Source of the DNA: Squalus acanthias
Taxonomy: Eukaryota
NCBI GenBank assembly: GCA_030390025.1
Contig: CM059431.1
Location: forward strand, 109,804,001-109,868,000
DNA: 64,000 bases
Direction: 5' to 3'
Shown piece after piece: positions 47,257 through 64,000 of this stretch. The translations under genes and the position numbers were made by a program. The notes beneath the pieces were generated by a model. It did not search any database. It was given only the letters and a program-made list of their open reading frames with translations, and was not told the DNA's origin. Numbering within the stretch: position 1 is the first letter of the stretch; each line of letters opens with the position of its first letter.

Positions 47257-48543
47257 GTGCTTATAACATTTCTTCCTCAACTGACATATAGACCAGCAGA
47301 ATGGGAATCATTTATACCTTATATCTCATCCTGGTCCTCAGATTCAGAGGACGAGCAGCCGCAGCAGCAGCAGAACCAGGCACAACAGGAGCGCCAACCT
47401 TCTCCTGAGCCACCTGATGCTGCACAGGGCAGAGGCCGTCAGCGCAGGGCTGCACTGCGCCGCAGGAGATACCCCCAACACAGGGTTTACAGGCAGAGGA
47501 TGAGCTTCCTCAACATGAGTGAGCAGCAGTGCCAAAGGAAGCTGAGACTTTCGCGAGAGGTAGTCGCTGACATCTGCGCAATGCTGCACCAAGACCTGCA
47601 GCCCAGAGGAGCGGGTGGACACCCCTTACCAGTGGCTGTCAAAGTCACCACCGCACTCAACTTCTTTGCTTCAGGGTCCTTCCAGGGATCAGCAGCAGAC
47701 ATCAGCGGCATTTCCCAGTCAGCCGCACACACTTGCATCACGCAGATTACCAATGCCCTGTTTGCCAAGTCGCACAATTACATCCACTTCTCAAAGGATG
47801 AAACAAGTGTTACCGCGCGGGCGGTTGGGTTTGCCAATCTGGCAGGTTTCCCAAGGGTGCAGGGTGTCATCGACTGCACACATGTGGCCATCAGGGCACT
47901 CCATCACAACCCAGCTGTATTTGTCAACCGCAAGGACTTCCAGTCCCTTAAAATCCAGCTGGTGTGTAACCACAGGAAGAACATTATACATGTTTGCGTC
48001 TTGTTCCCTGGCAGTTGCCATGACTCATTCATCCTGCGGCAGTCTACTGTACCTCAGCTCTTCAATCCACCAATCCAACTTTCTGGATGGCTTCTTGGAG
48101 ACAACGGCTATCCCCTGAAGACGTGGCTAATGACACCGATGAGGAGGCCATCAAATGAAGCTGAGAAGCGCTACAATGAGAGCCACACTTCCACCAGAAG
48201 CATCATAGAGCAAACCATCGGCTTGCTCAAAATGCGCTTCAGATGTCTGGACAGATCTGGTAGAGCCCTACAGTACACACCAGCCAGGGTCTCTAGAATC
48301 ATCGTGGTCTGCTGTGCACTGCACAACATTGCACAGCAGCATGGCTTACCGCTGCCTGAGGAACAAGTGGCAGAACGCACAGCCTCCTCAGAGGAGGAGG
48401 AGGAGGAGAAGGAGGAGGAAGAGCCGAATGAGGCTGCAGATGAAGAAGACCTGGCGGAGGCGGCTGTCCCAGTGCTACCAGCATGCGAGCACATTGCTGG
48501 CCGTGAGGCAAGGGATGGGCTAATCCATGCCAGATTCGCGTGA
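47257..48543 (+). CDS. Harbinger (HARBI1-like) DDE transposase; open frame, probable frameshift near the native ATG at 47301
   Basis: [75 protein letters not shown], acidic C-terminal tail. Confidence 0.9.
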
Positions 48544-50235: not shown

Positions 50236-50789
50236 ACAGTGTCTACATGCAGCTGAGCAGAGCTCGGAGCATCTAACGGCCTCCGACGAGGACTCTCCAC
50301 TGCTGTCCCTGTCTCCATCATCTGCTGATGCTCACTTGTGAGCTATGATACACCAAGTGACAACACTACTCTATCTCCCAAAGGACCCACCAAGGTGTGC
50401 GTCTCTGCGCTGGTGCTGGGTGCGCTCATTTCTGCTGACGCTGCTCCCTCAGAGGCTGCAGGTTCCTCTGAGGAGTCATCTGGCTCTTCCTCCTGGACAG
50501 TGGGGAGGGAGGCGCTCGATGGTCCTGTGGGGGAGTAAAGGCATGAGTTAGACATGTGATATTTAGGTAGCAGACACATTCCATTGTGCAGATGACCAGA
50601 ACTCAATCTCTATCAACATCAGATGCCATATCAGTCACTCATGAAATCTAAATGAGAGGGTTGCAAATCTATCCTGTCACCAGCTTGCTGTACTACGCCC
50701 ATCTCTCCATCCCCCACTTCCAGCTCCTCTGCACCTCCGACAATCTCGATAGCAGCCTCCTCAGCGTTAGCTAAATGCGCCATAGAAGG

Positions 50790-52411
50790 TGTAAGGGATT
50801 CTGACCCTGCGTGTCTCGCAGCCTGTGAGATTCACGCGGCTCTGTGCAGCCTGTATGTCAGTGCGGGTCTAGGCCTTGTTGCCTGTTCTGGTCTCCAGCC
50901 AGTCTGGGAACACTAGACACACCTGTGAGTGGTTCGAATCACTCGCCCTTACGGTTCTAGACACTGGACTTAGATGCGAGAGCAGTAATGGAGATGAAAC
51001 TCATGTAGACTTGGTTGAATGGTACGAAATGGAAAATCTTTATTGCATGATACTTAAGATTATGAAATACATGTCATAAGCACAGATTAATGACAGTACA
51101 ATCTTAGAAGCAGTTATATAGTCGATCTTAGGGAAACGAGGAACGAACGGCACATAGTAAATAGGGGCACACATTACAAATATCCTTAATCCTTAAACCC
51201 TCCCCTATCAATATCTATCCTAACTAGATTCGTAGGATTTCGAGACTCATGCTCACCACTCGTGATAACTCAGAGAAATTCCGAATAGCTGATCGGATGT
51301 TTTTCACCGCAGCACCCACGTGTCGGTCAGGAGATCTCCTGGTCCCACTTGTTTACTTGCTTCTGCTGCTCCGGCTAGCAGGCTGGACCGTCTGCTGTGA
51401 TGAAGACCTGTGTTGGTTGGTTTAACAGGTACTTTCCGAGCACAGTTGTCAATATCATCGATGTGATATGTTCTTTGCAAGTTCGAAGAAGTCTTCCTGG
51501 CAAGGAAAACTTGGCTATTCGACCTACAGGCGCGGTCGGGATTTACTGACCGTGGCGATGGATATGGTCTTCCTCTCTTCTCATCTCATCTCATCTCATC
51601 TCATCTCGGGCCTTTGGTTCCGCTGCCAGTTACCAACATAGGTCTTCGTTACGCGACACGAGGTAGATCCGAACGGATCAGAAAGTTCAACAGTCTTTTC
51701 AAAAAGGCAACAGGCAAGCAGGAGCCCGACTACGAGTACACAGGAGCAGCCACGATGATAAGAGTCGATCGGATCAGAGAAAGATGGACGGTTTGGAGCC
51801 TGCAATTATAGTGCAAAATCTTCCGTTTCCCGCCCAACCTTAATGTCCATTCTTTTGTTTAGGGTCTGGCGCTCAAATGTCTTGTATGGGTGATCTCCGT
51901 TCTTAATGGGTTTCGGGGCTACTCGTAAATGTCTGAGTACCTGTTAATATTTCTCCCATTGTTAAATCGGTCGGTGTTCTCCCTGGAGGGGTTGTGGGGC
52001 TTCCAAGTGTTTTGTATAACTACCTGCTAACGGCTCTCTCATCGTAGAGTCGTTGGGATTTTACATATTAATGTCTTTTGGATGGGCCCTTGATTACTCG
52101 GTACAATAGCTTTCATTCGTACCTGGGAGACCGATTTTAGTATTTATGTGTGTACTGCAAACCCATCATGTCTTGTGTATTATCTTCACTGTGCTGAATC
52201 TTAATCGATCTTGCACAAATGTTTATTGGAACGCCATCTTGTCTGCCTGTCGAAAAGTCTAGAGTGTTCTGTCACGAGGTGCGGCGGCCATTTTACAGGC
52301 TGCTTGTGTCCACTTTAAACCTGGCAGCATTCTGCTGAAATAAAAGCTGTTTGAACGAAACTCTGTGTTTTCTCCTTATTAATAAAATCGCGATATATTG
52401 CGAATTCTACA
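50790..52411 (-). mobile_element. Solo LTR (~1.62 kb) inside Myb exon 2
   Basis: TGTA...TACA termini; flanks share AGG (AAGGT if terminal bases are included); exon 2 rejoins as GPP|SMAHL; minus-strand AATAAA at 51039-51044; (tctca)n run. Confidence 0.82.
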
Positions 52412-54548
52412 AGGTGGCCCTCCTCCTGTCCTCCCCCTCTCCCTCTTATTGTGGGCTTTCTTTTCCAGCAATGAGGGACTAAAGTGGAGTTTGAGTGAGA
52501 ATGTTGGAGTGAGTGTAGAGAATCCACAGCATAGATGCTTAGAGGGAGACAAAGATGGAGTGAGGTGCCAATACCAAGGTCCCTCCCTGTGCGTTGTTAG
52601 TTGTTGTCATTGCATAACAGTGATAGCGAGTGTGAGGGGTGCATAGTAGAATGGTGAAGTGATTCAGTACAGAGAGAGAGAGGGATGGTTAAAGGTGCAA
52701 GGGATGTAAGGGTAGGTTGGGATGTGCAGGAGTAGGCTGACAATGCAGAGTGCTGGTGATGAGAGCTAATAGGGAGCAGATTGAAGGTAAGTGTGATGTT
52801 ATACTCACTTTTGCTGAGCGTAGCAGATCATTGAACCTTTTGCGGCACTGAATCCAGGTGCGTGAGCACAAAGACCTGGCACTAACCTCCTCAGCAATTT
52901 GCAGCCAGGCTGCCTTGGTTTGCTGAGGAGGCTTCCTCCGTCCATTGGAAGGGAAACAGAACCTCCTTGCGCCCTCTTACTCCCTCCACAAGAGCATCGA
53001 GGGAGTCATCTTCAAAGTGGGGAGCAGCCTTTGTTCTTGCAGCAGTCATCTCGCAAAGACCAGCACTCAGGAGCATCAGAAAGTAAATGAAACCCAAAGG
53101 CTACATGGGCCCCCTAAATGCAGCTGAGTCGAAGACATCAGCAAAGGCGAGCAGCAGAGCCGCACCCACTGATTGGGCCGGGTAACGCGCACGGCGGGCT
53201 TTAGAAGCCCAATCTACTGAAAATCGTTATCTCAGTGTGGATGGAACGGGCAGCGGGACTGGAACCCGGCGCGAACCCTCCTCCGCTGGGAAAATCCAGC
53301 CCTTCGCTCAGTAAAGCCTGGCGGTCAAGAAAAAGCAAACCCAAAAAGGTAAGTCTGAAATGATTTTAGTGATGAGCAGGTGCGGGAATGTCAGAGGTTG
53401 GCCTCTGGGCCATCCGATATCGCACCAGTCCGGAACCAGCGAGCTGCAGTGGGAGGCCTGTACGGGGCGGGGGTTGGGGGGGTGGGGGTTCAGCTCGGCG
53501 GGTGGCTTCTTTATCAGGCCCAGCCCTCAAAATAGACCGGATCTCCCACCAGAGGAGTGGCTCAGCCATCCCCCACACACTCTGCCAGCTGGCCACCCAA
53601 TAGCTTAAATCCCCCCCTTTAGTGTGTGAGGGGTGGGATTGGATTTTTAATGTATGGGGATCGGAGTTTTAGTATACAGGTTGGATAGTTAGTTTGGAGG
53701 CTTGAATTCTTAGTGTATGGGCTTGTATTCTTTAGGTTTTTTGGGTGTGGTGGGCTCAGATTTTTAGTATAGTGGGTTTGGATTTTTAGTCATGTGTGGC
53801 CCACTCACTGGTTATCCCATGTCTTTCCAGCCCCCTGTGCTAGACTATAATCTTATCTTCATGTAATCTTTCTAACTGTTAAACTGGCCTAATCTATCTC
53901 TTTAAGAGTTCCAACTAACTCAACTCAGATTGTTGAACAGCTCCAGCTTATAAAATACCCCTGAAGACAGTTATCGGCACTTTCTGGACTTGAATAGTTA
54001 TCAATTACATTTAAAAAAATAACTGCCAGTCATCAGATAACTGAGAAAATCACACAGTACATATTTGTTCAAATGTGACTTGGCTTCTGCCTCGAACCAA
54101 TAAATCTCCTTAACATTTGTATCGAGTTAGGCTGGAGACACGTCTGACTCTAAGCTGGTTTTAAAAATCCATACATCTTGTGAATCAGAAGTGGGCAGGG
54201 AAGGGGGAGAAATCACCCAAGCTCCCAGATAGCCCCAAGCTTCTCACCACAGAAGCAGACTGACTGGCGCACAGTAGGTTAATGATTCCAAAAATGTCTC
54301 AAGTAAAACTCGCATCCATGGCAGCACTCAACATCTAGATAAAAAAAGAAAGTAAATGCATAAAAACTGTACGGACTACAACCTCGAGTGAGGGTGAGAT
54401 CCTGTCAGTAGTCTGGTCTAGGACTAGAAACAGAGGTTCGAATGCAAGCATCTTTATTTCCAACTAATAATATTTTAAGTGGTACAAGCTGGTCATGTCG
54501 CATATTCCTTCTCTTATTACTCAAGAGTCTCCCTGTGTGAGAGTCTTA

Positions 54549-57191: not shown

Positions 57192-58435
57192 AGTAAGAAA
57201 GACTTGCATTTATAAAGCTCCGTTCACAATCTTAGGACATCCCAAAGCGCTTTACAGCCAATGAAGTACTTTTGAAGTGTAGTCACTGTTGCACTGTAGG
57301 GAGCTTGACAGCCAATTTTCGCACAGCAAGGTCCCACAAACAGCAAAGAGATAGTGGCCAGAGAATCTGTTTTAGCGATGTTGGTTGAGGGATAAATATT
57401 AACCAGGACATCCCCTGCTCTTCTTCAAATAGTGCCAATGGGATCTTTTGCGCCCACCTGTGTAAGATTTCCAAAATTTGCAGATCCCCAAAAATATATC
57501 GAAAGGAAAAAATAAGGACTTTGGAACTTTAAAGGAAACGCGCCTGGACATGTTCGGCACGCGGATGGTCTGGGAATTCAAAGACCAGCAAACATTACCA
57601 TTTGGACAATAGGCCCTGGGGAAAGGCCGCCCCACCCAAAACACAGAGCCCATAGGAATACTAGGCCCAGCAAGGAACCCAAAGCAGGAGAACAAAGCAA
57701 GCTTCCATGGAACAACAACGCAACAGGATGTAAGCCATTTGATTTGGTTTAGCATAGTTGAAAGCCCATCAAAATTTCAACAAAGACAATGAACAGGCCT
57801 CACCTGAATACTCACTGCATCACGAAACCAATTTTTCGTGAGGAGTTTTGTGGGGGGGGCGGGGGGGGGTGGGGGCGAAAAAGGACTATATCTATAGCAG
57901 GACCCAAGAGCTCTCTCTCTTTTGACTCGCCGACTACACTGGAAACAAGGCTCTCTCGCAGCACTGCCCAGAAGCCACATGGTAAAGGAAGACGTTCGAT
58001 GACCAGAATCACCATCGACTTACCTGGCTGGATTTCATATTGTTAATACCCCTGTCTGGTGAGCATTATCCCTGATCTCCTGAAACTGAAACCTAACTAG
58101 AAGTGGGATTTTTGGGAGGGATAAAGGTTTTTATTTTTCTTGTATACTGTCATTTTCCTCGCCTGTAACCGTGTGCTCCCCAAACCTGTTTAAGTGTGAA
58201 GTGTGTTTAAGTTTGTTACCTTTTAACTTTAATAAAAGTTATAGTTCTTTCATTGGAACCTGTGGTCTACTGCATCTTTATTCACAACCCCTAAATAAGT
58301 CCAAGTTTTGAACCTGGGGCGTGGGAGCGATTCGAACCGCTCACTGAGTCAGGGAAAGGCTGACTCCTACCACAACCCACACCCTACACCTGATAGGGCA
58401 GACGGGGCCTCGGTTTAACATCGCATTCGAAAGAA
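57192..58435 (-). mobile_element. SacSINE1-like SINE split by the solo LTR at 57461-58388
   Basis: SINE sequence resumes across the LTR: ccacctg|atagggcagacggggcctcggtttaac. Confidence 0.85.
57461..58388 (+). mobile_element. Solo LTR (928 bp)
   Basis: TGTA...TACA; 4-bp TSD CCTG (57457-57460, 58389-58392); TATA-like ~57886; AATAAA 58231. Confidence 0.9.
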
Positions 58436-61064: not shown

Positions 61065-61258
61065 TGTGGTAACACAATACAGCTTCCTGTGACTCGAACT
61101 TTATTGCATCACTTCCTGTGATTAGTCCAGGATAAATACTGGACTGAGCAGTTGGATCCTGGAGAGGCATAGAGTAAGACCTCTTTTGTATGTAGCACCT
61201 TTTTAGTTGATTAAAGCTTACTTTAAGTTCACCACGCGTAAGGCTCATTCTTACGACA
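61065..61258 (+). mobile_element. 5' LTR (194 bp) of a Gypsy retrotransposon inserted into the Penelope element
   Basis: tgtggtaa...ttacgaca termini (7/8 inverted match); ATTAAA 61210-61215; gag follows; 3' LTR is outside the window. Confidence 0.75.
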
Positions 61259-61336: not shown

Positions 61337-64000
61337 ATGGAAAACATCCTTAAACCATCGCGTCTTGACTTGGACCCAAACACCCCAGCAGCCGGTAAGG
61401 TGTGGAAACACTAGTATCGCACGTTTGACAATTTTCTCGAATATTGCAAGGCTGATGATGACACAAAGTTGCGGATACTCATCAACTGTGTCACTCCGAA
61501 TGTATTTCAGTACGTTGAGGAATGGGGCAGTTACGAGGAGGCAATTCGGACGCTTAAAAGACTATATACTAAGACACCGAATGAGGTCTATGCCAGACAT
61601 CTACTAGCTACAGCCCAACAAGGGCCGGAGGAATCCATTGATAAATTCCTCCAAGAGCTTCGCAGACTTAGTATGGACTGTAACTTTCAGGCGGCCTCAG
61701 CTGAGCTGTACCGTGAAGAAATGATCCGTGATGCTTTCATCTGCGGGCTTGCCTCCCCATTTATACGCCAGCGTCTACTGGAAAGTAAGACACTTGAGCT
61801 TCAGAGAGCTTATGACATGGCTTGCTCTCTAGATCTGGCAAAAAGAAATGCAGACCTTTATACAGTGCCCAGACCTCGGTCTGCTGCCTTAACTACAGTC
61901 AGGCAATTTAAGAGGCCACAGGTGAACTCTATTAGGGAGGACTTTATCCCTGACGATCAATCTGATGACTTCACTGATGAAGAGGATGATGACCCCACTG
62001 TGGCAGCCTCTTGGCAATCTAAGAAATGCTTCTTTTGTGGTGATGAGTTTCACCCTCGGAAATTCTGCCCTGCTCGCAATGCGTTTTGCAGTCATTGCAA
62101 CAAAAAGGGTCATTTTGCAAAGGTTTGCCTATCAAGAGCCTCTACGAGGGCTTATCAAGCTAAGTCCTACCGAACTGCCCCGGTAAGGGCCTATCAAGAT
62201 GTTCCGGCTAAAATCTATCGTGCTTCCTCTCGGGTTTTCTCTCGAAGAAACACACCTAGAGTTTCAGCCACTCTTTGTGCAACGACACCAATTACAGCTG
62301 CTTGTCCTCAGAACCTATTCCATGCAGCTACAAAAGCATCAATTAATGGACATACTTTAGATGCCTTAATTGACTCAGGTAGCACTGATAGTTTCATTAG
62401 GGAACAGATTGTTGCAGAGTTAAAGCTACATGTTTTCCCATCGGACCAGGCAATTGCGATGGCTCAGTCATCACTTAATACCAGAATTTCTGGCTTTTGT
62501 ATGGTTGAAATAACACTTAATGGTCGCAGGTATCCCTCCACCCGGCTTTCGGTGCTCAAGGACTTATGTAGTGATCTTATCTTAGGGCTGGATTTTCAAA
62601 AGCAGCATAAGAAACTCACCATTGAGTTCGGCGGATCCAAACCTGAACTCACTATTTCTAATATACGACCTCGATTACCGTTCTGTGCATTGTCAGCAGC
62701 TTCACTGGATGAACCCTCACTGTTTACCAGTATCCCTCCTCGATGCAAACCGATTATAACAAAGTCACGACGTTTCAGTCAGGAAGACCAGTCTTTTATT
62801 GCGGCTGAGATTTCTCGGCTTTTAGCAGAGGATATCATCGAGCCTTGTTCGTCGCCATGGCGCGCCCAGGTCGTTATTGTTAAGAACCCTCTACAACCTC
62901 ACAAGAAACGGCTGTGCATTGACTATTCACAGACCATCAATCAATATACGGACTTGGACGCATACCCATTGCCGCGCATCGATGATATGGTTAATAAACT
63001 GGCTGAGTACACGGTGTTCTCAACATATGATCTGAAAAGTGCCTATCATCAGGTACCCTTGAAGGTCTCAGACAAGCAGTATACGGCCTTTGAAGCCAAT
63101 GGACGGCTGTATCAATTTCGTCGCCTCCCCTTTGGGGTCACTAATGGAGTGGCTGTCTTCCAGCGAGCAATGGATGACCTGGTCAAACAGGAAGACTTGA
63201 AGGATACGTTTCCTTATCTGGACAATATTACTGTCACAGGTCGCAATCAGCGGGAACATGACGCCAATCTCCAATGATTTTGGGATGCACTCCAGCACCG
63301 TAATTTGACATTAAATGCGGCTAAATCCATTGAGTCACAACCAACCATCAACATCCTTGGCTATTGTGTGGGCAATGGCATCATTAAACCTGACCCTGAA
63401 AGGCTTCGCCCACTCCAAGAGCTCCCGCCACCTAAGAATCCGGCCTCCTTGCGCCGGGCCCTCGGCCTGTTTGCATACTATGCTAAATGGATTCCTAACT
63501 TCTCGGACCGAATCCAACCTCTACTGAAGGCCAGCACATTCCCACTAGACACAGCGGCTGTTGCAGCCTTTAACCTCCTGAAAAAACAGTTGGAGAAAGC
63601 GGCTCTTCACTCCATCGATGAGAGTCTTCCTTTTGTTGTTGAGTGTGATGCCTCGGAGGTGGCGATCTCGGCCACTCTGAATCAGGAAGGTCGTCCGGTG
63701 GCATTTTTGTCCAGGACTTTTCAAGGGGCTGAGCTACATTATCCTCCAGTCGAGAAAGAAGCTACAGCCATCATAGAGGCAGTACGGAAGTGGACTCATC
63801 TCCTAGCTCGCCAGCACTTTACCTTAATCACGGACCAGCGATCGGTCGCCTTCATGCTCGATAATCGAAAACGGACCAAAATTAAAAATAATAAAATCCA
63901 GCTTTGGCGGCTGGAATTGGCCTCTTTTGGTTACACCATCCACTATCGACCTGGCAAGGAGAATGTGGCTCCGGATACCCTCACACGAGCATTCTGCTCC
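61337..64000 (+). pseudogene. Ty3/Gypsy gag-pol in one frame (Gag with two CCHC knuckles, protease, RT, RNase H); two nonsense codons; runs off the window
   Basis: ATG 61337; CFFCGDEFHPRKFC and CSHCNKKGHFAKVC; LIDSGS; RLCIDY, YDLKSAYHQ, LPFGVTNG, YLDN; ECDAS...EKEA...TDQ; stops TAG 61412-61414 and TGA 63275-63277. Confidence 0.93.

What the first reader, a model, noticed from the sequence alone, without database searches (positions are those of the whole stretch)
50790..50975. Same T-loop/B-box architecture, with a compensatory change, in a second dissimilar solo LTR
Seen: gagTggttcgaatcActc (50927-50944) versus gagCggttcgaatcGctc (reverse complement of 58325-58342), a T-A/C-G swap around an identical GGTTCGAATC. 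In both LTRs the terminal bases pair with the segment just after this hairpin (tgtaaggg/cccttacg here), enclosing further hairpins (gaccc/gggtc; ctgcgtg/cacgcgg with tctcgca/tgtgaga; tgttc/gaaca) whose wobbles are G-U on the antisense strand. Both also share aagtcca...gaacc just inside. The LTRs are otherwise very different (1622 vs 928 bp). Inference: a conserved functional RNA or ssDNA element in this LTR group.
Basis: partly seen in the sequence, partly recalled or inferred. Interest (0 to 1): 0.7.

Follow-up and report, generated by a model that had tools for sequence, protein, structure and literature searches.

The report
Primer-site fold in retrovirus-like repeat ends
Two retrovirus-like end-repeats in this genome share a folded end that looks like a tRNA when read backwards, but it is most likely the mirror image of an ordinary structure in the element's own RNA that helps hold the host tRNA primer where DNA copying starts.

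Summary
Two solo LTRs (50790-52411, 57461-58388) share an 18-nt hairpin around GGTTCGAATC, and each LTR end pairs with the segment beside it, using different sequences. Public contigs show a primer-binding site 5 nt beyond 50790 and a purine tract beyond 52411. So the fold is the U5 end, and the "T-loop" lies on the antisense strand.

The genomic RNA reads TCGAACC there, in an open loop. This is the complement of the T-loop bases freed when a tRNA primer anneals, as proposed for avian sarcoma virus U5 and the HIV primer activation signal.

Against a Pol III or tRNA-mimic reading: no A box in LTR1; the antisense G-U excess follows base composition; the cited compensatory pair is a double CpG transition; one related contig keeps the stem but breaks the B box. 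The LTRs are also homologous over about 200 nt, so they are not independent. Unexplained: a second shared hairpin forms only on the antisense strand. No RNA data could be tested.

This scan noted the same fold and reading three times before in this genome (once on LTR2 of this window). Verdict: real, probably an ordinary variant of a known retroviral structure.

The parts
50790..52411 (-). Solo LTR1 (1622 bp); genomic-RNA sense is the window minus strand, U5 end at 50790, U3 start at 52411
   Evidence: TG...CA ends. In other runs a TGG-initiated 18-nt primer-binding site lies 5 nt beyond 50790 (1 contig, X20) and a purine tract beyond 52411 (3 contigs, X18); depth covers 29-30 of 30 bins in three DNA runs
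50790..50977 (-). U5 end module of LTR1: multibranch fold closed next to the primer-binding site, plus the shared AAGTCCA...GAACC block
   Evidence: Folds. 2 contigs in X20 share sequence up to 50977 and then run on unlike LTR1
50791..50797 (-). Terminal arm of the 7-bp closing stem (overlaps the presumed integrase attachment end)
   Evidence: Pairs with 50946-50952; mean pair probability 0.97 on sense RNA and 0.41 on antisense RNA
50946..50952 (-). Inner arm of the closing stem
   Evidence: Only 7-mer in LTR1 complementary to the terminal 14 nt
50798..50924 (-). Length-variable insert with extra hairpins (about 127 nt here, about 33 nt in LTR2)
   Evidence: Folds differ by strand and by window. 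Indels and a loose end fall here in other copies. Lengths counted
50927..50944 (-). Conserved hairpin, 5-bp stem with an 8-nt loop on the sense RNA; near-palindromic
   Evidence: loop positions unpaired 0.65-0.92 on sense RNA
50931..50937 (-). TCGAACC box: complement of the T-loop word GGTTCGA that precedes the PBS-bound 18 nt of a tRNA (candidate anti-T-psi-C box); reads as a B box on the other strand
   Evidence: Only TCGAACC in LTR1; register shown on the tRNA gene in L056
50953..50970 (+). Second shared block GGTTC...GGACT: a hairpin with two G-U pairs on the antisense strand; on the sense strand a second GAACC box plus AAGTCCA
   Evidence: Pair probability 0.27 antisense and 0.0 sense. 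A 1-nt deletion in its loop is common in three runs
51039..51044 (-). Putative poly(A) signal AATAAA of LTR1
   Evidence: aligns with the AATAAA of LTR2
57461..58388 (+). Solo LTR2 (928 bp) with 4-bp target-site duplication CCTG; sense inferred as the plus strand
   Evidence: ends, flanks, AATAAA at 58231, homology to the R-U5 end of LTR1. No reads were laid on it here
58325..58342 (+). Homologous hairpin of LTR2, with TCGAACC at 58332-58338
   Evidence: hairpin probability 0.94 and loop unpaired 0.99-1.0 on sense RNA
58317..58384 (+). Closing stem of LTR2 (58317-58325 with 58376-58384), enclosing the hairpin and a 7-bp inner hairpin (58346-58366)
   Evidence: one position is G-T on the antisense strand and a C-A mismatch on the sense strand
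58298..58314 (+). Second shared block of LTR2 (AGTCC...GAACC); a third GAACC box lies at 58255-58262
47257..48543 (+). Host context: transposase ORF (Pfam DDE_Tnp_4) of the DNA transposon into which LTR1 appears to have inserted; LTR1 interrupts a second, minus-strand ORF
   Evidence: paralogous empty sites in X3 (joint tables). The label PIF/Harbinger is recalled

Best explanation
The feature is the U5 end of a related group of retrovirus-like LTRs, and it works on the element's genomic (sense) RNA at the start of reverse transcription. The last bases of U5 pair back to close a multibranch domain directly 5' of the primer-binding site. Beside that stem, a hairpin displays TCGAACC in an open loop. 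When the 3' 18 nt of the primer tRNA (probably Arg, recalled) anneal to the PBS, the tRNA's T arm opens, and its freed GGUUCGA pairs with this box (and perhaps with neighbouring GAACC boxes), which helps select or activate the primer. The apparent antisense T-loop/B box is the mirror image of that complement. Shown: position in U5, PBS and purine tract, foldability, covarying closing stem, complementarity. Inferred: the pairing with the primer, the primer's identity, and any effect on priming.
For: Orientation and adjacency to the PBS. The 18-nt PBS complement is exactly the CCA-ending 3' end of a tRNA gene and is directly preceded by GGTTCGA (L056). On sense RNA the closing stem has probability 0.97 and 0.79 and the loop is open; on antisense RNA the 'T-loop' collapses to a UCGA tetraloop. 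With the L056 tRNA as stand-in, the three best duplex sites of 928-nt LTR2 all lie in its last 135 nt. GAACC occurs 2 times in the last 170 nt of LTR1 (3 in all) and 3 times in the last 135 nt of LTR2 (4 in all), against 93 in 128 kb of both window strands (motif chosen after the fact). A related contig keeps a perfect stem but reads TCGAGCC on the sense strand, which still pairs through one G-U, while the antisense B box and U54 are lost (1 contig, X20). Precedent: a U5/T-psi-C interaction is proposed for avian sarcoma virus and a PAS for HIV-1 (passages of PMC3185550; PMC13191261), and PAS-like elements are reported across retroviruses (section 7 of PMC11181671).
Against: In LTR1 the hairpin box ranks only 6th among non-overlapping duplex sites (-10.7 kcal/mol); the best site (-15.6) lies 686 nt from the end. 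The second shared hairpin (GGTTC/GGACT) forms only on the antisense strand (0.27 and 0.51 against 0.0 and 0.13), and one pair of LTR2's closing stem is a mismatch on the sense strand. m1A58 blocks Watson-Crick pairing (passage of PMC13191261), which shortens the duplex to 6 bp. The HIV PAS model is itself disputed (PMC3185550). The stand-in tRNA comes from a viral contig with an unresolved anticodon, not from the host. Only two full sequences and one variant fragment were compared.
Confidence: 0.58

Rival explanations
1. Antisense element: the fold acts on the antisense strand, either as a tRNA-like RNA (Pol III product or processed antisense transcript) or as a structure of the nascent minus-strand strong-stop DNA. 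The closing stem plus hairpin give a 13-bp acceptor/T-arm-like stack, followed by a second GGTTC hairpin.
For: Perfect match to the B-box word in both LTRs (consensus recalled). The second hairpin and one closing-stem pair need antisense G-U. 50910 A>G gives U-G on the antisense strand in all three DNA runs (58%, 25%, 100% of summed depth). The antisense fold has the lower energy and, over 186 nt of LTR1, the better z-score (-2.25 against -1.11). Pol III units exist in foamy-virus LTRs (passages of PMC3993851), and tRNA-derived LTRs exist (Helenus, PMC10886601).
Against: No TRGCY word upstream of the B box in either LTR, while 1 of 2 SINE-head controls in the window has TRGCY..YGG. With one mismatch allowed, LTR1 has no A-box-like word and LTR2 has 3. 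The first T4 run is 511 and 152 nt from the end. ARAGORN and Rfam find no tRNA. The stem has one G too many for a canonical T arm. The region between stem and hairpin differs about fourfold in length. The G-U excess follows composition. One variant breaks the B box.
Confidence: 0.15
2. Dimerization palindrome: the sense hairpin exposes the self-complementary hexamer UUCGAA and starts genome dimerization by a kissing loop, then an extended duplex.
For: The 18-mer is near-palindromic; the self-duplex folds at -20.1 and -23.1 kcal/mol against -4.8 and -6.3 for the single hairpin. The loop is open on sense RNA.
Against: The loop-loop duplex is weak (-4.1 kcal/mol). The X20 variant keeps only a 4-nt palindrome. 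Any perfect hairpin gives a stable self-duplex. A U5 site would also sit in every 3' LTR read-through; most known dimer initiation sites lie downstream of the PBS (recalled).
Confidence: 0.1
3. Shared ancestry only: the two LTRs descend from one U5; the closing stem is an ordinary U5 stem tied to the integrase end or to the start codon beside the PBS, and the loop sequence has no partner.
For: About 200 nt of R-U5 homology. The hairpin's only compensatory pair is a double CpG transition. Folding z-scores near -2 also occur elsewhere in both LTRs. An ATG overlaps the first PBS bases.
Against: The 10-nt core is identical while the neighbouring stem is fully replaced. Only 1 of the 40 listed substitutions (of 162) falls in 50790-50977, where 4.6 are expected (P about 0.045; truncated table, so weak).
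Confidence: 0.17

Closest known systems
U5 / T-psi-C loop interaction of avian sarcoma-leukosis virus (Aiyar et al. 1992; seen only as cited in passages of PMC3185550 and PMC13191261; original not read)
   Same: [quoted passage not shown]
   Different: Here the box sits in a hairpin loop stacked on the closing stem of a multibranch domain of variable size, there are two or three GAACC boxes, and the primer is probably tRNA-Arg. No function has been tested.
HIV-1 primer activation signal (PAS) and the HIV-2 U5/T-psi-C stem pairing (passages of PMC3185550; section 7 of PMC11181671)
   Same: A short viral motif pairing with the primer's T arm outside the PBS; described as present across retroviruses.
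   Different: The HIV-1 PAS is 8 nt and masked in a helix. Here the 7-nt box is predicted mostly open and matches the universal loop word rather than a tRNA-specific stem.
Helenus / TRIMp3, TRIMs with tRNA-derived LTRs (Kojima 2024, PMC10886601; abstract, part 2 of 6 of the text, section 4 and passages read; supplements not opened)
   Same: LTR element with a GGTTC box-B word in the LTR; 4-bp TSD in animals; known from coelacanth and ray-finned fish.
   Different: Helenus elements are 311-1263 bp with LTRs up to 323 bp and keep box A (TRGCY, YGG). These LTRs are 928 and 1622 bp, lack TRGCY, carry an AATAAA signal, and give no tRNA call.
Pol III miRNA cassettes in foamy-virus LTRs (PMC3993851, abstract and passages)
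   Same: Precedent for A/B-box Pol III units inside retroviral LTRs.
   Different: Those need A box, B box and a nearby T-run terminator; LTR1 lacks the A box and a near terminator. The purine tract/LTR junction here also lacks the GGGTG motif described for foamy-like fish ERVs (PMC5210030 passage).

Membership tests
Solo LTR of a tRNA-primed LTR retroelement | TG...CA termini with target-site duplication | tested here: met
   LTR2 has a 4-bp CCTG duplication. LTR1 has AGG on both sides (3 bp, or 4 bp with one junction base lost); empty paralogous sites confirm the insertion point
Solo LTR of a tRNA-primed LTR retroelement | Full-length relatives with a PBS after U5 and a purine tract before U3 | tested here: met
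   LTR1 family: PBS in 1 contig (X20), purine tract in 3 contigs (X18); 18 of 299 loose ends were shown. Not tested for LTR2
Retroviridae (ERV) rather than Gypsy | pol/env phylogeny of the internal region | not testable with these tools
   No genome is held and no internal sequence beyond 30-nt loose ends was returned
U5 anti-T-psi-C / PAS-type element | Sequence near the PBS complementary to the primer's T arm 5' of the PBS-bound 18 nt | tested here: met
   7-nt TCGAACC in both U5 ends; register shown with the L056 tRNA as stand-in. Host primer sequence not in hand
U5 anti-T-psi-C / PAS-type element | Box is the favoured T-arm partner in the leader | tested here: inconclusive
   LTR2: three best sites are in the last 135 nt. 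LTR1: rank 6 in the whole LTR
U5 anti-T-psi-C / PAS-type element | Mutation lowers initiation and a compensating tRNA rescues it | not testable with these tools
   Needs an in vitro priming assay
Pol III type 2 promoter unit (tRNA/SINE-like) | B box | tested here: met
   GGTTCGAATC in both LTRs; broken in one related contig
Pol III type 2 promoter unit (tRNA/SINE-like) | A box upstream of the B box | tested here: not met
   None in LTR1 even with one mismatch; only one-mismatch words in LTR2; no TRGCY in either
Pol III type 2 promoter unit (tRNA/SINE-like) | T4 terminator shortly downstream, at a conserved place | tested here: not met
   First T4 run 511 nt (LTR1) and 152 nt (LTR2) from the LTR end
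Pol III type 2 promoter unit (tRNA/SINE-like) | Transcript or TFIIIC occupancy | not testable with these tools
   The one raw RNA run laid 0 reads, which is no test
Helenus / TRIMp3 | Short element, LTR of about 320 bp or less | tested here: not met
   928 and 1622 bp against at most 323 bp
Helenus / TRIMp3 | tRNA-derived segment with boxes A and B | tested here: not met
   Box B only; no tRNA call
tRNA or tRNA-like RNA family | Cloverleaf recognised by ARAGORN or an Rfam model | tested here: not met
   0 genes; 0 gathering-level matches in the window; no match over either U5 end up to E 5

The most novel reading that the evidence does not exclude
The U5 end is selected on both strands. As genomic RNA it catches the primer's T-loop, and as antisense RNA or nascent minus-strand DNA it folds into a tRNA-elbow mimic (13-bp acceptor/T-arm stack plus a second GGTTC hairpin that needs antisense G-U pairs) recognised by a host tRNA-binding factor, TFIIIC or the element's own reverse transcriptase. 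That would be a tRNA mimic encoded on the antisense strand of a vertebrate retroviral U5.
Probability: 0.12. Interest if true: 0.65.

Novelty: new variant of a known kind. Interest (0 to 1): 0.24.

Why it matters
If the best reading is right, it extends the U5/T-psi-C primer interaction, studied in avian retroviruses and HIV, to an abundant LTR group in another vertebrate lineage (cartilaginous-fish-like by recall of its repeats and by earlier scan notes). Thousands of natural copies could then test a disputed model by covariation. That is useful but incremental. It would be surprising only if the antisense strand proved to be the functional one. I found no paper describing this fold in 9 literature searches (result listings seen, passages read in 10 papers); the library lacks most subscription papers and Repbase reports.

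Tried and rejected
No whole genome is held, so no family-wide alignment or covariance model was possible; I did not build an Infernal model from two sequences. Pattern scans for relatives gave only prokaryotic, phage or chance matches: 2 and 5 loci in viral contigs and 46 in metagenome contigs, none with BLAST similarity to the window at E 1e-3. Rfam and ARAGORN found nothing over either U5 end. No RNA holder was listed, and the raw poly(A) RNA run of organism G laid 0 reads: no test. Only LTR1 could be laid (one call), so LTR2's orientation rests on AATAAA and homology. A text search for the PBS string in papers found nothing; the tRNA-Arg assignment rests on recall, on 14 of 18 identity (counted by eye) to a PBS that PMC11905727 assigns to tRNA-Arg, and on earlier scan notes. 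Sequence look-ups of earlier findings were blank. Rejected: independent convergence of two unrelated LTRs; folding energy as a strand test; a second canonical T arm (perfect only in LTR2; the common 50959 deletion removes it in the LTR1 family); Helenus membership; foamy-type junction. The lokiretrovirus paper has no PBS, tRNA or shark passage, so that lead could not be tested. The Gypsy-like ORF at 61415 is a separate element.

Full report
Observation. The two hairpins are present as described, and they are the only exact GGTTCGAATC sites in 64 kb. They lie 142 and 51 nt from one end of two solo LTRs, 50790-52411 and 57461-58388. LTR2 has a 4-bp duplication. LTR1 has AGG on both sides and interrupts a minus-strand ORF beside a DDE_Tnp_4 transposase gene; empty paralogous sites in run X3 confirm the insertion point. 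In both LTRs the terminus pairs with the segment next to the hairpin. For LTR1 the 7-bp complement is unique in the LTR. For LTR2 it is a 5-bp Watson-Crick run (reached by 8.9% of 900 other positions) within a 9-bp helix. The arms of one LTR do not pair with those of the other (3 and 4 bp), so this stem covaries.

The LTRs are relatives. Their R-U5 ends align with score 93 against 43 +/- 6.5 (0 of 1000 shuffles), sharing the AATAAA region, GTCTAC, TAAGTCCA, GAACC and the hairpin, while the upstream parts are no more alike than shuffles (137 of 200). The motif is therefore a conserved piece of one LTR group, not convergence.

Orientation. No genome is held, so I laid contigs or reads of 4 public runs on 50730-52470; 20 listed runs from at least six coded organisms hold part of LTR1. 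One X20 contig continues beyond 50790 into a 5-nt spacer and a TGG-initiated 18-nt primer-binding site on the minus strand. Three X18 contigs continue beyond 52411 into a purine tract. LTR1 is therefore transcribed on the window minus strand, the fold is the U5 end, and the 'T-loop' is antisense. The 18-nt complement is exactly the CCA-ending 3' end of a tRNA gene found in a viral contig (L056, 1 of 6 hits; anticodon unresolved), directly preceded by GGTTCGA. I take the host primer to be tRNA-Arg(UCG) from recall; the PBS is 14 of 18 identical, by eye, to one assigned to tRNA-Arg in a passage of PMC11905727.

Which strand? Energy does not decide. The last 100 nt give z of about -2 on both strands in both LTRs, and similar values occur elsewhere in the LTRs. 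Over 186 nt of LTR1 the antisense strand does better (-2.25 against -1.11). The antisense strand is 55-61% G+T, and 22 of 22 (LTR1) and 11 of 12 (LTR2) helices of 7 bp or more there contain G-U, against 4 and 2 such helices in all on the sense strand, so an antisense wobble excess is expected. On sense RNA the closing stem has probability 0.97 and 0.79 and the 8-nt loop is open. On antisense RNA the closing stem has 0.41 and 0.91 and the loop closes to a UCGA tetraloop (the model does not know tertiary T-loop geometry).

Pol III or tRNA mimic. The B-box word is perfect, but neither LTR has TRGCY upstream of it, LTR1 has no A-box-like word even with one mismatch (LTR2 has 3), and the first T4 run is 511 and 152 nt from the end. 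ARAGORN and Rfam are blank. The part enclosed by the stem is about 127 nt in LTR1 and 33 nt in LTR2. One X20 contig carries a perfect 8-bp version of the stem with three loop-region changes that destroy the B box and U54, yet on the sense strand leave TCGAGCC, which still pairs with GGUUCGA through one G-U. It is a single contig and may be a decayed copy.

Mechanism. When a primer's 3' 18 nt anneal to the PBS, the 5' half of its T arm is freed. The sense RNA shows its complement, TCGAACC, once in each LTR, in the hairpin loop. With the L056 tRNA as stand-in, LTR2's three best duplex sites all lie in its last 135 nt; in LTR1 the box ranks 6th and a stronger site lies 686 nt from the end. Such pairing is proposed for avian sarcoma virus U5 and for the HIV-1 PAS, is described as general among retroviruses, and is disputed for HIV-1 (passages of PMC3185550; section 7 and passages of PMC11181671; passages of PMC13191261). 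I put this reading at 0.58. Position, folding, covariation and complementarity are shown; the pairing and its effect are inferred.

What does not fit. The second shared block, GGTTC...GGACT, forms a hairpin with two G-U pairs on the antisense strand (0.27 and 0.51) and hardly at all on the sense strand (0.0 and 0.13). A common 1-nt deletion at 50959 (30%, 54%, 52% of summed depth in three runs) falls in its loop and gives LTR1 the same spacing as LTR2. One pair of LTR2's closing stem and the common variant 50910 A>G also favour the antisense strand. On the sense reading these blocks are sequence motifs, one of them a second GAACC box. An antisense RNA or minus-strand DNA role keeps 0.15. A dimerization palindrome (0.10) and plain inheritance of an ordinary U5 stem (0.17) remain. 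Only 1 of 40 listed substitutions (of 162) lies in 50790-50977, where 4.6 are expected (P about 0.045), a weak sign of constraint.

Comparison and novelty. It works like the ASLV U5/T-psi-C or PAS-type elements. It is not a Helenus/TRIMp3 element: LTRs are three to five times too long and box A is missing (PMC10886601; supplements not opened). It is not like foamy-virus Pol III cassettes. Whether the elements are ERVs or Gypsy could not be tested. Nine literature searches showed no description of this fold. I had written the sense-strand idea down before seeing other notes. Three earlier notes of this scan report the same fold and reading in this genome, one of them on LTR2 of this window; they are unchecked AI notes and not independent support. 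Verdict: real feature, new variant of a known kind, interest 0.24.

Noticed in passing
window 50977 (run X20): Two contigs share LTR1's U5 module up to 50977 and then continue in unlike sequence, suggesting the same U5 end on a different LTR body (modular exchange or stronger conservation).
   Followed up: no
   Followed up: partly
window 51476-51488: The strongest anti-T-arm site in LTR1 (-15.6 kcal/mol with the stand-in tRNA) lies 686 nt from the U5 end; X3 loose ends fall at 51471-51472.
   Followed up: no
window 50787-50789 and 52412-52414: LTR1 is flanked by a 3-bp duplication (AGG), or a 4-bp one with a lost junction base, against 4 bp for LTR2; it sits in the second ORF of a DDE_Tnp_4 transposon.
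   Followed up: partly
window 61066-61257: Start of a Gypsy-like element (gag-pol ORF 61415-63277). After its short presumed LTR I saw no TGG-type PBS by eye; several earlier notes describe self-priming Gypsy elements in this genome.
   Followed up: no
window 52339-52344 and 52381-52386: Two AATAAA words on the plus (antisense) strand close to the U3 end of LTR1, a possible antisense poly(A) signal.
   Followed up: no
window 50790-52411: Differences between the window copy and X3 contigs are skewed: T>C 25, G>A 17, A>G 14, C>T 8 places.
   Followed up: no
L056:540-618: A tRNA gene in a viral contig, with an 8-nt anticodon loop (cata) that ARAGORN could not assign, whose 3' 18 nt match the LTR family's PBS exactly.
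   Followed up: partly
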